Part shown: piece by piece, positions 1,361 to 49,994 of the stretch
Position numbering within the stretch: position 1 is the stretch's first letter
Layout: each line of letters starts with the position of its first letter
Origin: Octopus sinensis
Lineage: Eukaryota
Length of the DNA stretch: 64,000 nucleotides
Direction: 5' to 3'
Assembly: GCF_006345805.1 (NCBI RefSeq)
Contig: NC_043006.1
Span: 87,730,001 to 87,794,000, forward strand
Translations under genes and position numbers: made by a program
The notes under the pieces: generated by a model
Seen by the model: only the letters and a program-made list of their open reading frames with translations
What the model was told of the DNA's origin: nothing
Database searches by the model: none

Positions 1361-1926
1361 ATACAAAATAAGAAAATGGAGAAATACATCGAAATCAAAT
1401 ATCAATTACCAGATAATACTCAATCACATACTTTATTAAACCACCACATAAGAAACTATAAAGTTAAACATAATAATGTAGGGCAAAACAGTGTACATAA
1501 AAGAGTAATGTTATACAATAAGTAGAATATGTATAAGAGAAAATAAATATAAGTACACATAAATATAAATATAGACTACATCTTACAGCTGTTTCGGCCA
1601 TGTAGATAAGTATGTCTCATTTTACTTATATTAGCCATTTATGGTAGGTCAATATGTAGTTATAAATGAGACATTTACAAAAATATCCTAAGGCCTCTTC
1701 GGAGATTATGTGATACAAATCAGATTACATACATACTTATATAGGTGTGGGTACATACCCATAATAAAACATATACATATATATATGAGTGCATATACTC
1801 ATACTCCTATACATATAAATATACATATACATTTATGTATTAACTTTGTTGGGTACTTCACTAGCAGTATATTGGATATATGTTATCCCATGGAGGGTTG
1901 CATTTACAACCCCTATCTCAATTTGT
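1361..1926 (-). mobile_element. Short hammerhead-bearing repeat (Penelope-like terminal repeat or non-autonomous element) between (TA)n tracts
   Basis: Both ends recur, joined, at 42849-43021; contains the hammerhead motif at 1580-1706; flanked by (TA)n on both sides. Confidence 0.65.
1580..1706 (-). ncRNA. Type I hammerhead ribozyme-like motif with very long stem II
   Basis: Minus strand: ATCT-CCGAAGA-GGCC-(~92 nt hairpin incl. ATGTCTCATTT/AAATGAGACAT)-GGCC-GAAA-CAGCTG-TA-AGAT; palindromic stem III, GUA site, U4C core variant. Confidence 0.7.
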
Positions 1927-1950
1927 ATATATATATATATATGTTTGTGT

Positions 1951-2286
1951 GAAGGTGCATGGCTCAGTGGTTAGAATATCGAGCTTACAATCGTGAAGTT
2001 GTGAGTTTGAATCCTGGACCGGACTGCATGTTGTGTTCTTGAGCAAGACACTTTATTTCACGTTGCTCCAGTTCACTCAGCTGTAGAAACGAGTTGCGAC
2101 GTCACAGATGCCAAGCTGTATTGGCAATTGCCTTTCCGTTAGATAACACTGGTGGCATGGTGAGGGGAGGCCTGTATGCATGGGCGACTGCTGGTCTTCC
2201 ATAAATAACCTTGCCTGGACTTGTACCTGGGAAGGTAACTTTCTAGGTGCATTCCCACGGTCAGTCATGACCGAAGGGGATCTCAG
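1951..2286 (+). mobile_element. tRNA-derived SINE family C
   Basis: A box TGGCTCAGTGG, B box-like GTTTGAATCC, then TTGTGTTCTTGAGCAAGACACTTTA; 3' half recurs inverted at 28585-28780. Confidence 0.8.
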
Positions 2287-4399
2287 CATACACACCCACA
2301 CATACGTAGACAAGGTTACATTTGCTGCTGCTTCCCTCATCAGTTTGATTCCTTATCTCTCCATCACTCACCTTTTTTTTTTTCTCACTGCACTATGCCA
2401 TGTAACAAGGGATTCTTCTGAACTAACTTAAACCAAATCCCTCCTGCCATCCTTTAGTTTTGTGAAGGATATGAAAACCTTTCTAATGATAGTGCCACAA
2501 CAAAATGCACTAAATAAACACCAGATGGTTAATCATAGGCCGGGTATCCAGCTGTAGAAGCTAAACTAAAAATGAAGTGTACAAGTGACATGTGGTCCAA
2601 CAGCCCAACTAAGTGGTTAAACAGACGAAATATGAATTTGACTTGGATTGTGGCGATCTGCACAATAAACACCAAGATGGAAAGTAGATGGAAAATGATG
2701 CTCATACAGATGCAGGTACACATCGTCATTTTTACATCTGCTTTTCTCTTTGGGTATGGTTTGGAAGGCACTATATGATCAGATACCCTTCTTGATGCTA
2801 AATTTTGTTTAGCCACTAGTCATGACTGGTTATGCAGACCTATGATTAAAGATACTCCAGTTGCGAATGTACTATCTTTTTTATACTATGCCTAGGACTA
2901 CATTATCTAATGTGTACTTTCCTTATTTAAGATGGCTGCTATTTCTGGCATGTTAGGCAATTGCGTAAATACCCCCACATTGGTTCTTATTGAAACAACA
3001 CTAAAAGGATGAAAGGTAAATCCACAAAGTGATTCAAACCCAGAATATGAACAATCATAAATATGAGTCATCAACATTGAAATCAAAATGAATTTTATTT
3101 ATTTGTAGAAGAGATAAATAGTTAATGAGAATTGATAACTAGATTTCTCTTATCTTGGTTTAAGCCCTGTTTTAGTGATATATATATACACACACACACA
3201 TATGTATGTATGTCTCTTCTGTATTTAATTATTTAAATTCTTCCTCTGAAGAAGGAGCTGGTTTCTAACAAAGATATAAAGCTGCATCTTTGGAATATAG
3301 ATAACAAAAACAATATCACATTTTAAACCTGAGAAAAGTCTCACATAGCTTTACTCATCTGCTGCATGTGTGTGTGTATGTGGATGAATAAACTGAAATG
3401 ATATATTAATGGTACTTGAATTTTTTAAACAACTAATGAGTTTTAATCTGCTAAAGGTGAAATTTCACATTAAGCACCTTATAACAACTATTCTAAAATT
3501 CTAATATCTGAACAAGCCAAAACATTCACAAAATATTAATACTAGAAAAATACGACTGCTAAACGTTGGAGACAATGACTAAACATTGATACTGTAGAGA
3601 AAAATACAACAATGATGAAAGAACAATGGTTAATGAAATTGTTTGACAAGGTCTGAGTAAAAGTTACTGAATAGTGACATGGGTGTCAAACACAAGCATG
3701 ATTTTGTAGCATTGATAATTGTTTTCAGCACTTATGTAGTCCTCCCATACTTGTGCCAATAGAATATCCAGGATGTGATAGCTGAAGCATCAGCACTTGG
3801 GCTGGTATTTATTTTAAAGAGAAAAGATTGGAGGAGCAATGTGAAATAAAATACATTAAGAAGACATTATGCTATTCAGTCCAGTAGTATTTTAGAAGTA
3901 GAAGGTGCATGAACTGGTTAGGATGTTGTGCTTACTGGGATTGTTATCTGAGATTTGAAGGTGCATGACACTAGTTTAGTTAGATTTTTATTGGTTTATT
4001 TTTTTAATGTCTCAGAGGAAGAAGGGCAGTGTCTATGATTACTGAAACTGGTGGGAGGAAAGGAAAAAATTATGTTTTCTAACAGTGAAATGCTAATGAC
4101 ACCTAAAAGACAGGTGATGATGTAGAAACTGGTTGACAGTGAGTCATGGTTAAGGACACCAAAAGGACAGGTGCTGGTGTTGTATTAGGCAATGAATTAA
4201 GTCTTCCTCAGATGAAGATGAGTAGTCGACAGACTTCCATGCAATTTCCATCTGTCAAATTTCATTCACAACTCACTACTTTATTAGAAGACTTTTGTTC
4301 AAGATTCAGCACAGTGGGATCAAACCCCAAACCATGAACTTGTGAAGCAAACAAAAATAGCATCTAGAAACGAAAATATTGAATTAACAAAATCAAAAA

Positions 4400-5400
4400 C
4401 ATCAGTCATCTTCTAAAGTGCTGACAAGTAACTTGTTAACCAACAATACACAAAATCTTGATATGTATAACTTCGCGGATGAGAGTATCTTGTCAGAAGA
4501 GCTGAAAGAGTGTTGCTGATAAAACATGGAATCAAAAAGAATTTTTGCTAAAACTGAGCAGTTATTGAAAACAACTAATTCAGAAACAAAAATCTAAGCA
4601 TGGCATGGATTGAGAAACCATTATCTGAATAGTCTCACTACTAAGAAGTGGAGACATTGTACATCAACAAAACAACCCTGGTACAGTAACAGCATATCAA
4701 CAATGTCATGGTAAAATGGAAAATATCATTAACAATTTATGATAACAGAAGATAAAGTAGCCATATCCTTGTAAGAAGAAGAAATTAGTCTTCATTACAT
4801 TGTTGTCTAGCACTGAATAAACATATTTACTACACCAAACCATCAATGGTTACAAATGCTGCAGACAAACTATAAATCATGTTCTTGTGATTTCAAAAAT
4901 AAAAGAGAAACCACAATTAATAGGGAATTAATTCAGCAGTAATTTCAAAATGAATATCAGATTTAGACTCAACATACAACAAATGTGTCTCAAAGCTACC
5001 ATAAAAAAAGACAAATTAATTAAACTCAAAATACTACAAAAGATATCCTCTCTCTTTGCATATATATATATCTATATATATATATTAACAGTATGATACA
5101 CATTAGAAGCTTAATACCTCAACAGAATAGATTTAGATAAAGACAAAACGACCGGGGAATGTAACAGAAGAAATAAAAAAGATAAATTTAAACCAAAACT
5201 CAAAAATACATAAATAAATAAAACTAATGAACAAGGAGGAAAGAAGATCCTGCTTAGGGTCAGTATATTCTGCAAGATTTGACAGATAAGAAGTGATCCA
5301 TTATGGAAGCCAATGATGGCTTAAAAGCTCTGGACTGAAACACAGAAATGGAAGATTTTGATTTTATCTACAAAAACATGAATGGCAAACAACATAGAGC
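4400..5400 (+). pseudogene. Highly decayed non-LTR reverse transcriptase, similar to the R4/Dong copy at 12.2-14.8 kb
   Basis: Collinear remnants NLSMAWI (4591), CCLALN (4800), TINH (4870), IRFRL..KC..KAT (4955-5000) parallel NLSIAWID, FCLAL, NINHL, MQFGLDKCAKAT of the intact copy. Confidence 0.45.
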
Positions 5401-48309: not shown

Positions 48310-49405
48310 ATATATATATATATATATATATATATAAATGAGAGAAGGGAGCCTCACCTGACTGCTTACAACAGAATGGGCTCCACCAAAGCACCTGAGA
48401 CGACCATTAGAATGTTTAGCAGGCCTTATATTCTTACAGTTACACTAACCCTAAATTGATACTTTATATATTAACCCTGAAAGGATGAAAAGCAAAGGGG
48501 ATTAGACCTCAGAGGGGTTTGAGCACAGATTCAAAACAAATACCACAAGGCATTCTATACAACGCTAATGACAGCTAAATATTAGTTACTCATTGTACAT
48601 GCATTTATACACACATACATGCAAGCAGATGTGTAGGGATCTACTCAAATTATTTCTGAAATAAAAATTATATAAACTGTAGAAATAAAAAATATATAAA
48701 ATGAAGTATATATATTTTTGCTTATATAAAAACAAAATTCAAATATTTATTGTAATAAGGGCAATATGACTATTGTGTGTGTATATGCATAACATATATA
48801 TACTCCAAAACAGGGCTTTTTCCATATAACAAATATCAAAGTTATAGAAAATACAATTATACTAGTTCTGATTTTTATATATGTATTGTTTTTTTTTGTT
48901 TTTTTTTAAATTATTCTAGCATTTACTTTGTTTTTATTGAACTCATCCATAGCTTCTCTAAGTTCCCAGAAGTTAGCTTTAATATTTGAAACTGTTATCC
49001 ATTTTTTGAAATTATTCAGCAAAATATTAAAAACTATTCTTACATAAGCATTCATTTAGTGAACGGTCCACCTCACTTACAGAGAAGTGAAATGAAAGTA
49101 AAATGAAGAAAATGGAAAGAAAAAGGTACTCATGGTATTTTTGTATAAATAAAATCAACCAAAACTGTATTAGAATTAAACAGTGAAAATTATGCACATC
49201 AATGGAAAATATATTTTTCAAATTGTGTGTGTGTATAAATATATATATATATATATTGGACTAGTTACCCTTATTAAAACTTTACTCATTTAAAATGATA
49301 GAGTTATTTAAAGGAAATTTGAGTATTGTATCTAGGTCTTCCTTCCTCAGCACGGAATAAACTTAGGTGTTGTGTGACCTCAGATTAGTCATATTTGAAA
49401 AAACA

Positions 49406-49530
49406 TCATGAAAGGCACAAACTATATTGTTCGATACAGATTTCATTTAAGGGAGTGATTTCTGAGAGATTTGACTGGCACTTGCAATAGCTTGTGCAAA
49501 TATTAGTAGCAGCCTCTTCATTAAGATTGT
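49406..49530 (-). CDS. Candidate Cys-rich exon (LRRNT-like or small secreted peptide), possibly pseudogenic
   Basis: Acceptor TTTATTTGCAG; phase 1 matches the 52221 donor; reads (D)NLNEEAATNICTSYCKCQSNLSEITPLNEICIEQYSLCLS*. Confidence 0.3.
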
Positions 49531-49958
49531 CTGCAAATAAACTATCATTTTTTCCATGTCTCCTATTATATATAAATTGTATGAAAACAGAAAAAAGTTT
49601 CATATTTTGAATTAGATTTTAATTTAGAGTAAGTATATTCTGTACCAACTGACATTTTTTGGTGGGGGTCAGGATACTGTAAATATAATTTTAGAAATTA
49701 TAAGGCCATTTGTACGGAGAAAAAATAGTTCAGATGAGGAAGAGTTAAAGTAGGAGACCTGATGGTCCTAGATTTCAGCATGTTGACTTTTGTTCTTGAA
49801 ATAAGTACTGATTACATCACCACAGTTTGACTTGGAGTAACATAGAAGTTAGGTTCTGGGCACATATAGAGAGAATTCACAAAAAAAACAAAAGAGGAAG
49901 ACAGGTGGTGTAGACTATAAACAGATGTATTATTTTAACGCTCAGGAAGTGAAAAAGT

Positions 49959-49994
49959 CTTTTACGTTTCGAGCCTACGCCCTTCCACAGAAAG
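49959..49994 (-). ncRNA. Minimal hammerhead-like motif, variant core CUGUGGA, in a short repeat (about 49870-50035)
   Basis: Minus strand CTTT-CTGTGGA-A-GGGC-GTAG-GCTC-GAAA-CG-TA-AAAG; flank related to the 35636 locus. Confidence 0.55.

What the first reader, a model, noticed from the sequence alone, without database searches (positions are those of the whole stretch)
1580..49994. Nine hammerhead-ribozyme motifs from about six unrelated short repeat families in 50 kb
Seen: type I hammerhead topologies (stem I - core - stem II - GAAA - short or palindromic stem III - NUH - stem I') at 1580(-), 11818(-), 14889(+), 21707(-), 22377(-), 22424(+), 35636(+), 48095(+), 49959(-). Flanks are mostly unrelated, none has an adjacent RT ORF of its own, and seven are in elements embedded in (TA)n or (AAT)n. 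Established: minimal type I hammerheads with palindromic stem III typify Penelope-like element terminal repeats and metazoan non-LTR retrozymes, and can cleave as dimers. Inference: this genome hosts a diverse set of microsatellite-targeting, non-coding ribozyme retroelements mobilised in trans. I cannot tell whether these families are already catalogued.
Basis: partly seen in the sequence, partly recalled or inferred. Interest (0 to 1): 0.8.

Follow-up and report, generated by a model that had tools for sequence, protein, structure and literature searches.

The report
Penelope retroelement hammerheads plus one retrozyme
The nine ribozyme-like motifs are really there: eight are the cut-off tail ends of protein-coding jumping genes (Penelope-like elements) that are known to carry such motifs, and one belongs to a non-coding 366-base repeat that likely borrows the same enzymes, so this is mostly known biology with one useful test case.

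Summary
All nine motifs are at the stated places, above chance (strict descriptor 4 loci; 0 of 60 shuffles reach 4). Three window copies are broken, and two pairs are inverted arms of single insertions: seven insertions, seven families. The 'non-coding, mobilised in trans' reading fails for six families. Longer copies or sister subfamilies elsewhere in the genome run on into RT + GIY-YIG frames of Penelope-like elements (PLEs); the window holds 5'-truncated 3' ends. This matches Cervera & de la Pena 2014. The density is ordinary for this genome (9 strict motifs in 400 kb sampled). Only 48095 is non-coding: a 366-nt tandem unit with a canonical-architecture hammerhead, a non-LTR retrozyme. Its 40 insertions show PLE-type marks: two fixed 3' ends, inverted 5' arms in 19, a one-sided tail in 10 of 10 scorable pairs. 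A 2026 preprint already proposes the retrozyme-PLE link from homology. The scan noted similar patterns on other DNA. Cleavage and circular RNA are untested.

The parts
1364..1832 (-). Family A: 5'-truncated 3' end of a Nematis-like PLE; hammerhead 1580-1706 with core CCGAAGA, ~92-nt helix II loop, palindromic helix III ACAGCUGU; (TA)n at its 3' end
   Evidence: RT + GIY-YIG frame reached in 1 of 3 extended loci (L189), about 2.7 kb upstream of the motif
11732..11966 (-). Family B, inverted left arm with the ~30-nt 3' tail; hammerhead 11817-11862 (GAAA changed to AGAA); includes the 3' part of the tRNA-like segment
11962..14977 (+). Family B, right arm without tail, split in its internal (AAT)n tract by a nested LINE; hammerhead 14888-14933 (GAAA changed to AAAA). 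Parent is a Penelope/Poseidon-like PLE
   Evidence: (19 of 30 long loci with >=150 bp of PLE frame upstream)
12210..14795 (+). Nested 5'-truncated RT + zinc finger + restriction-like endonuclease LINE (R4/Dong-like, label recalled); not the parent of the hammerheads
   Evidence: frames 12000-13961, 13943-14497; RVT_1 E=1.9e-27; zf-RVT E=2e-4; no blastp match to the PLE proteins at E<=0.01
21509..21965 (-). Family C: 3' end of a young Neptune-like PLE with its last codons, a 42-bp 5' inversion, tail and (TA)n on both sides; hammerhead 21707-21746 with U3-A8 core and palindromic helix III ACCGGU
   Evidence: (487-531 aa open frames in L132, L133)
22360..22555 (.). Family D: head-to-head pair centred on the AGCT palindrome of helix I; hammerheads 22377-22426(-) and 22423-22473(+); tail only on the + arm; (TA)n on both sides. 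Parent is a Nematis-like PLE with a ~3-kb TG/TA-rich 3' region
   Evidence: (frame reached in 2 of 5 extended loci)
35562..35761 (+). Family E: ~200-bp 3' end; decayed hammerhead 35636-35670 (family core mostly CCGACGA). Sister subfamily continues into a Neptune-like RT + GIY-YIG frame
   Evidence: (frame in 5 of 6 extended loci)
47688..48309 (+). Family F: non-coding 366-nt tandem unit (non-LTR retrozyme); direct arm 47879-48309 (longer than one unit), inverted arm 47688-47883 carrying the tail, (TA)n on both sides; hammerhead 48095-48138 with 6-bp helix I, 4-bp helix II, U3-A8 core
49864..50032 (-). Family E2: 3' end related to E; hammerhead 49959-49994 with core CUGUGGA (A6 replaced by U, as in the family). 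Related subfamily continues into a Neptune-like RT + GIY-YIG frame
   Evidence: (GIY-YIG hit in 2 of 30 loci)

Best explanation
Eight of the nine motifs are hammerheads in the 3' ends of six families of protein-coding Penelope-like retrotransposons, left here as short 5'-truncated copies, and the ninth lies in a non-coding 366-base tandem repeat that is likely copied by the same Penelope-type enzymes, likely from a circular or multimeric RNA. How it works: a PLE RNA is reverse-transcribed from a nick made by its GIY-YIG endonuclease, often in (TA)n (established for PLEs; inferred here); copying starts 60-370 nt downstream of the hammerhead and usually stops early, so the piece with the hammerhead is what survives (fixed 3' ends and variable 5' ends are shown); a second copy made on the other strand gives the head-to-head pair with a tail on one arm only (pattern shown, mechanism inferred). 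The hammerheads would cut tandem precursor RNA, mostly as dimers through the palindromic helix III (published for PLE motifs; untested here). Family F has no frame; its copies run through the predicted cleavage site and past one unit length, so its template would be a circle or an uncleaved multimer.
For: Frames upstream of the motif: B 19 of 30 loci (loci selected for long copies); C 5 of 5 loci examined out of 20, open for 471-531 aa; A 1 of 3; D 2 of 5; E sister subfamily 5 of 6; E2 relatives 2 of 30. Protein matches: RVT_1 E=7.7e-07 (B), 9.2e-06 (C); GIY-YIG E=0.002-0.03 (C, E, E2), all just below Pfam's cut-offs; A and D match a 712-aa RT + GIY-YIG protein at E=1e-49 and 7e-36. Two 3'-end classes with reciprocal use in inverted pairs in A, B, C, D and F, as drawn for PLEs in PMC8557442 (passages). 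Motif traits (unpaired base after A9, U3-A8 variant, opposite-strand pairs, mostly single truncated copies) are those of PMC4209133 (parts 1-2 read). F: 20 of 40 direct arms exceed one unit, 19 of 40 have an inverted arm, 31 of 40 a TA flank, no shared foreign upstream sequence among 40; fold z=-6.7, 0 of 100 shuffles; 3 compensatory pairs against one divergent copy.
Against: The window's own E subfamily was never seen with a long upstream part (0 of 20); its link to a frame is through a sister subfamily. A rests on one locus. A, E and E2 cores deviate from the canonical core as family states (U4 to C, A6 to U) and D has a weak helix II, so activity is uncertain; a preprint saw cleavage in 1 of 9 tested retrozymes. 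Only 1 of 40 F insertions holds two whole cores in tandem, and a longer non-coding relative of F exists (L238/L363), so F could be the remnant of an unfound coding PLE. F covariation rests on 3 sequences (26 of 500 shuffles reach it). PLE frames of other families lie within 1.5 kb of 4 of 40 F loci; I read these as neighbours and looked at only one closely.
Confidence: 0.85

Rival explanations
1. One reading: all families are non-coding ribozyme retroelements moved in trans.
For: Most copies are short; E (0 of 20 long), D (18 of 20 inverted within ~20 nt of helix I) and B (12 of 20 scorable copies start within -17..+7 of the tRNA-like segment) have piled-up 5' ends; F is non-coding.
Against: Six families or their sister subfamilies continue into PLE frames. 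In D both arms carry the same state at two variable sites in 12 of 12 copies where both arms could be read, which fits an inversion made anew at each insertion, not a fixed short master.
Confidence: 0.07
2. Family B has, besides its coding form, a short SINE-like form: a tRNA-derived Pol III promoter inside the PLE 3' region would give a ~280-nt RNA with the hammerhead, copied in trans by the parent's enzymes.
For: An A-box/B-box pattern (as written in PMC8969392, passage) is found in 16 of 30 and 18 of 30 B loci; 5' ends pile up at its first base; outside the 30 B loci the segment was met twice, both times followed by the hammerhead part. Precedent: schistosome SINE-like elements with hammerheads (PMC6765202, passage).
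Against: A 12-bp palindrome at the same spot is present in long copies and could by itself cause fold-back there; ARAGORN (0 of 16 loci) and Rfam see no tRNA; no RNA data.
Confidence: 0.25
3. Family F is a truncated or locally duplicated piece of a coding PLE that I did not find, not an independently moving retrozyme.
For: A 78%-alike relative is ~1.1 kb long with extra upstream sequence; D, A and E also looked non-coding until followed 1.5-3.5 kb upstream; tandems of two whole units are rare (1 of 40).
Against: All F copies that extend upstream follow the 366-nt unit round again (20 of 40 exceed one unit); none shares other upstream sequence; copies are dispersed over many chromosomes with new junctions.
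Confidence: 0.15
4. The motifs are chance matches in AT-rich, repeat-rich DNA.
For: Loose descriptors do give chance hits (18 vs shuffle mean 5.9 with GAAA relaxed); Rfam gives no hammerhead match.
Against: Strict counts exceed every shuffle in the window and in 400 kb sampled elsewhere (9 vs 0-1 in 8 shuffles); the motif sits at the same place, near the 3' end, in seven families.
Confidence: 0.01

Closest known systems
Minimal type I hammerheads in the pseudo-LTRs of metazoan Penelope-like elements (Cervera & de la Pena 2014, PMC4209133)
   Same: Short or palindromic helix III, unpaired base after A9 (B, E, E2), U3-A8 variant (C, F), thousands of copies in many families per genome, mostly single truncated copies, opposite-strand pairs, few in full elements.
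   Different: Family-wide core changes U4 to C (A, E) and A6 to U (E2), a ~92-nt helix II loop (A) and a monomer-type 4-bp helix III (D) are not described in the parts I read; 3' non-coding regions here reach 1-3.5 kb of low-complexity sequence.
EN+ PLE clades Penelope/Poseidon, Neptune, Nematis (Craig et al. 2021, PMC8557442)
   Same: RT followed by C-terminal GIY-YIG; cysteine linker present in A, C, D, E, E2 and absent in B; inverted 5' copies; one-sided 3' tail; (TA)n bias.
   Different: Clade names for the linker-bearing families (Neptune vs Nematis) are recalled from motifs, not from a tree with references; tails here are 20-80 nt rather than 30-40.
Animal non-LTR retrozymes (Cervera & de la Pena 2020, PMC7229834; Li, Clavereau & Pollet 2026 preprint, 10.64898/2026.07.22.740005)
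   Same: Family F: non-coding 366-nt head-to-tail unit (mussel units are 350-390 bp), canonical 6-bp helix I and 4-bp helix II, stable fold, coexisting PLEs.
   Different: F is mostly dispersed 0.7-1.5-unit copies, with PLE-type inverted arms and one-sided tails; the sections I read argue the PLE link from co-occurrence and pLTR homology, not from insertion anatomy, and do not mention octopus or cephalopods (term search).
Schistosome SINE-like elements with hammerheads (Sm-alpha/Sj-alpha; via review PMC6765202)
   Same: Pol III-type promoter followed by a hammerhead, as in the short form of family B.
   Different: In B the tRNA-like segment is an integral part of a coding PLE's 3' region and short copies are not in tandem arrays.

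Membership tests
EN+ Penelope-like element (families A-E2) | RT followed by GIY-YIG endonuclease upstream of the motif | tested here: met
   for E and E2 through sister subfamilies, for A through one locus; Pfam scores are just under the cut-offs
EN+ Penelope-like element (families A-E2) | 5' truncation with fixed 3' ends, inverted 5' copy, one-sided tail | tested here: met
   two 3'-end classes in A, B, C, D with reciprocal pairs (B 18 of 22 loci); E and E2 show one 3'-end class and few pairs
EN+ Penelope-like element (families A-E2) | Full-length element flanked by two direct pLTRs | tested here: inconclusive
   no complete pLTR-ORF-pLTR copy among the extended loci; tandem and inverted partial copies in L135
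EN+ Penelope-like element (families A-E2) | Clade placement by RT phylogeny with reference elements | not tested
   no reference set on hand; blastp groups A+D, C+E+E2 and B; names rest on linker motifs
Minimal type I hammerhead | Conserved core, three helices, palindromic helix III | tested here: met
   three window copies are decayed; A, E, E2 carry non-canonical core bases
Minimal type I hammerhead | Self-cleavage (as dimer) | not testable with these tools
   needs transcription assays
Non-LTR retrozyme (family F) | Non-coding tandem unit of 170-400 nt with a type I hammerhead | tested here: met
   366-nt period, 2.2 units in L109; no shared coding upstream in 40 insertions
Non-LTR retrozyme (family F) | [quoted passage not shown] | tested here: met
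   met by 1 of 40 insertions (L109/L360); not by the window copy
Non-LTR retrozyme (family F) | Expressed as circular and linear monomer RNA | tested here: inconclusive
   only contigs of runs guessed to be RNA; the 366-nt go-back joint is also in the DNA-like run
tRNA-derived SINE (short form of B) | Pol III A and B boxes at the 5' end | tested here: met
   pattern with 1+2 mismatches in 16 of 30 and 18 of 30 loci; no tRNA call by ARAGORN or Rfam
tRNA-derived SINE (short form of B) | Independent Pol III transcript as the copied template | not testable with these tools
   5' ends pile up there but a palindrome offers another cause

The most novel reading that the evidence does not exclude
Family F is a retrozyme caught in the act: each dispersed copy was written directly from a small RNA circle by a (TA)n-targeting Penelope-like reverse transcriptase/endonuclease, which would be anatomical proof of the so far hypothetical PLE mobilisation of animal retrozymes, with a young, open-framed candidate helper (family C) in the same genome; and family B hides a second, tRNA-headed parasite inside its own 3' end.
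Probability: 0.4. Interest if true: 0.6.

Novelty: new member of a known kind. Interest (0 to 1): 0.33.

Why it matters
As a whole this is the expected picture for a PLE-rich animal genome: roughly 60,000 strict and 100,000 relaxed motifs by extrapolation from 400 kb (rough). It matters in two smaller ways. Family F shows, in 40 insertions, the same two-ended, one-tailed signature as the coding PLEs beside it, which is a different kind of evidence for the proposed PLE mobilisation of retrozymes and names a testable pair (F RNA with the family C frame). Families A, E and E2 spread with core bases that should slow a hammerhead, which bears on the open question whether PLE hammerheads need to cut at all.

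Tried and rejected
Rfam scans found no hammerhead or tRNA family; ARAGORN found no tRNA in 16 B loci. I first considered the RT at 12210-14497 as the parent of the 14889 motif and rejected it: it is a different LINE type nested in the AAT tract, and only 2 of the other 29 B loci have any piece of it nearby. I first read D, E and A as short non-autonomous elements and rejected that after walking upstream. Sequencing runs: no RNA holder listed for F; contigs of 4 runs cover the unit and show a 366-nt go-back joint, also in the DNA-like run, so they say nothing on circles or expression. Extending the divergent F relative by 7 kb found no PLE frame. A search for an F-like 3' end in 1.36 Mb of other fetched loci found only that relative. 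Literature searches: 'penelope-like + hammerhead + octopus' 1 work listed; 'octopus + SINE + OR1 + OR2' 0; 'octopus + penelope + transposable elements + neptune' 1 work; 'SINE + hammerhead + penelope + tRNA-derived' 2, neither describing such an element in the passages or abstract start seen; 'SINE/Penelope/non-autonomous/pLTR/RNA polymerase III' listing only. Lunse et al. 2017 on variant PLE hammerheads was not held, so whether the U4C and A6U cores are in print is open. Repbase and Dfam were not available, so whether the families are catalogued is open. Supplements of the cited papers were not seen and may list cephalopod motifs.

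
Full report
Setting. The window is G000:C10:87730001-87794000 of a 2.72-Gb animal genome. Its repeats look octopus-like to me; that label is recalled and was not tested. The window is full of (TA)n tracts and transposon remnants.

1. The observation. All nine topologies are at the stated places. 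A descriptor scan against 60 dinucleotide shuffles made in 1-kb blocks gave 4 loci with a strict core (shuffle mean 0.13, maximum 2), 6 with a relaxed core (0.97) and 8 when a long helix II loop is allowed (1.63); no shuffle reached the observed count in any setting. Four of the nine pass the strict test (21707, 22377, 22424, 48095), two more the relaxed one (49959, 1580), one only if GAAA may be AGAA (11818), and two pass none (14889, 35636). Copies elsewhere show that these three are decayed members of families with better motifs. Rfam gave no hammerhead match (150 of 157 rows shown). Forty 10-kb stretches taken at round coordinates elsewhere held 9 strict motifs (8 shuffles: 0-1) and 19 relaxed ones (2-5). 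At that rate the window would hold 1.4 strict motifs; 4 has P=0.06 and, counting insertions, 3 has P=0.18. The window is ordinary for this genome, which would hold some 60,000-100,000 such motifs (rough extrapolation).

2. What the elements are. I searched the genome with each family, fetched 20-30 loci per search, and walked upstream. First-look candidates numbered 174 to 3511 per query; only 40 were scored each time, so these are not copy numbers.

Family B (11818, 14889). Locus L002 runs upstream into a frame with RT and a GIY-YIG motif and no cysteine linker, Penelope/Poseidon-like. A search aimed at long copies gave 30 loci, of which 19 have at least 150 bp of that frame upstream; RVT_1 E=7.7e-07. 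Order of parts: frame, tRNA-like segment, (AAT)n, hammerhead, 3' end with or without a ~30-nt tail. In the window the two motifs are the arms of one head-to-head insertion; the left arm has the tail, the right arm lacks it and was split in its AAT tract by a 2.6-kb LINE with RT, zinc finger and restriction-like endonuclease. The R4/Dong label for that LINE is recalled; a passage of PMC3774820 mentions TAA repeats upstream of Dong.

Family C (21707). Five of 20 loci share sequence to the edge of the fetched stretch, and all five hold the frame, open for 471 aa in L082 and 487-531 aa in extended loci, with RT, a C-x4-C-xx-C linker and GIY-YIG. The window copy keeps the last codons and a 42-bp inversion.

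Family A (1580). Behind about 2.7 kb of low-complexity sequence, 1 of 3 extended loci (L189) reaches a broken RT + GIY-YIG frame. Family D (22377/22424). Eighteen of 20 best copies are short inverted pairs centred within about 20 nt of the AGCT palindrome in helix I. Longer copies are kilobase-long inverted pairs, and 2 of 5 extended loci (L191, L193) reach RT + GIY-YIG about 3 kb upstream. A and D proteins match each other (45%) and a 712-aa public RT + GIY-YIG protein (E=1e-49, 7e-36); I call them Nematis-like from recalled motifs. In 12 of 12 D copies where both arms could be read, the arms share the same state at two variable sites, over three combinations; a third site differs between arms in 2 copies. 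So the inversion is likely made anew at each insertion.

Families E (35636) and E2 (49959). The 20 copies nearest the window's E copy are all about 200 bp. A sister subfamily (76-89% alike) has a CA-rich upstream region, and 5 of 6 extended loci reach an RT + linker + GIY-YIG frame (GIY-YIG E=0.002-0.004). For E2, relatives 83% alike to the window copy reach a related frame in 2 of 30 loci. E and E2 differ by a compensatory change in the outer helix I pair (G-C vs C-G).

Family F (48095). A 366-nt head-to-tail unit; L109 holds 2.2 units. An exact 21-nt core pattern has 68 matches in the genome, the reversed control 0. From 50 fetched loci I dropped 8 duplicates and 2 second cores of the same insertion, leaving 40 insertions: 20 direct arms exceed one unit, 19 have an inverted 5' arm, 31 have (TA)3 or more on at least one side, and none shares foreign upstream sequence at the junction. 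The 3' ends fall in two classes, about 210 and about 272 nt after the core (16 and 16 of 40). In the 10 inverted pairs where both arms end in one of these classes, all 10 use one of each (P=0.001 if independent); the other 9 pairs have at least one end outside the classes. The coding families show the same: B 85-100 vs 115-133 (18 of 22 loci reciprocal), C 175 vs 230, D 62 vs 140, A 354 vs 373; E and E2 show one class. The unit folds far better than shuffles (z=-6.7). The motif has a 6-bp helix I, 4-bp helix II with a 6-nt loop, U3-A8 core and a 2-bp helix III. One divergent copy (78% alike) keeps the pairing with 3 two-sided changes and a different helix III palindrome; with 3 sequences this is weak (26 of 500 shuffles reach it). 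That relative is about 1.1 kb long, non-coding, with TA on both sides. Only 1 of 40 insertions has two whole cores in tandem. PLE frames of other families lie within 1.5 kb of 4 of 40 loci. Public runs gave no usable evidence on expression.

3. How it likely works. Shown: fixed 3' ends downstream of the hammerhead, variable 5' ends, head-to-head pairs with one tailed arm, TA flanks, contiguity with RT + GIY-YIG frames in six families. Inferred from published PLE biology: target-primed reverse transcription from an endonuclease nick that usually stops early, so the hammerhead-bearing end is the commonest fossil; hammerheads that cut tandem precursors, mostly as dimers. For F: copies pass through the predicted cleavage site and beyond one unit, so the template would be a circle or an uncleaved multimer, and the insertion signature points to PLE enzymes. 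Which family supplies them is not shown; C is young, open-framed and TA-targeting.

4. Comparison with what is known. PMC4209133 (parts 1-2 of 4 read) describes thousands of minimal hammerheads per genome in many families, mostly single and 'probably related to truncated PLEs', opposite-strand pairs, the extra base after A9 and the U3-A8 variant, with low activity in vitro. PMC8557442 (passages) gives the PLE clades, linker, inverted copies, one-sided tail and (TA)n bias. PMC7229834 (passages and sections 14, 17) defines non-LTR retrozymes, with 350-390-bp units in mussel, and names PLEs as a candidate helper. The preprint 10.64898/2026.07.22.740005 (parts 1-3 of 5 and a term search) argues that link from co-occurrence and pLTR homology in 35 genomes, without molluscs, and saw cleavage in 1 of 9 elements. 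PMC6765202, PMC8969392, PMC11722881, PMC6962438 and PMC3774820 were seen as passages only. Earlier notes of this scan on other genomes report the same reading for PLE hammerheads and PLE-type marks on non-coding tandem units; I saw them after forming my reading and did not test them.

5. Novelty and verdict. New members of known kinds. What remains of interest: the insertion anatomy of F as support for PLE mobilisation of a retrozyme; a tRNA-like segment inside the 3' region of B at which 12 of 20 scorable copies begin, possibly a nested SINE-like form; and family-wide non-canonical cores in A, E and E2. Whether these families are in Repbase or Dfam could not be checked. Interest 0.33.

Noticed in passing
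window 12210-14795 (+): 5'-truncated RT + zinc finger + restriction-like endonuclease LINE, frameshifted near 13950, inserted in the AAT tract of family B, next to a run of 61 AAG units (12026-12209).
   Followed up: partly
window 1832-1926 (-); also L064, L068, L148; L122; L331: Joints between different families: the 5' junction of the family A copy carries a ~90-bp piece that recurs at other A junctions and reads like another element's inverted 3' end; L122 joins E and E2 head to head; L331 has another family's 3' piece at its 5' junction. This hints that two different RNAs can be used in one insertion.
   Followed up: no
L189, L191, L193, L256, L325-L330: The 3' non-coding regions of four PLE families are 1-3.5 kb of CA-, TG-, TA- or CT-rich low-complexity sequence, so PLEs may themselves spread much of this genome's microsatellite-like DNA.
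   Followed up: partly
L195, L201, L205, L209, L215, L218, L224, L226 (random sample); L050; L189:~2500: Further hammerhead families not present in the window, many with longer palindromic helix III (8-12 nt).
   Followed up: no
window 42884-42969 (+) and 28391-28419 (-): Extra 3'-end fragments of families A and C without the hammerhead.
   Followed up: no
L238 / L363:5750-6870: A ~1.1-kb non-coding relative of family F between TA tracts, just after an exon-like frame of a membrane-transporter-like gene (label recalled).
   Followed up: partly
window 19479-20221 (+), 44797-45591 (+), 58052-58354 (-): Remnants of a mariner transposase, a Tc1/Tc3-like transposase and a Pif1-like helicase.
   Followed up: no
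window 24979-25135 and 43461-43624: Two long near-perfect inverted repeats (Rfam microRNA matches below cut-off); likely fold-back insertions of other repeats.
   Followed up: no
window 17115-17918 (+): A 267-aa open frame without a Pfam match.
   Followed up: no
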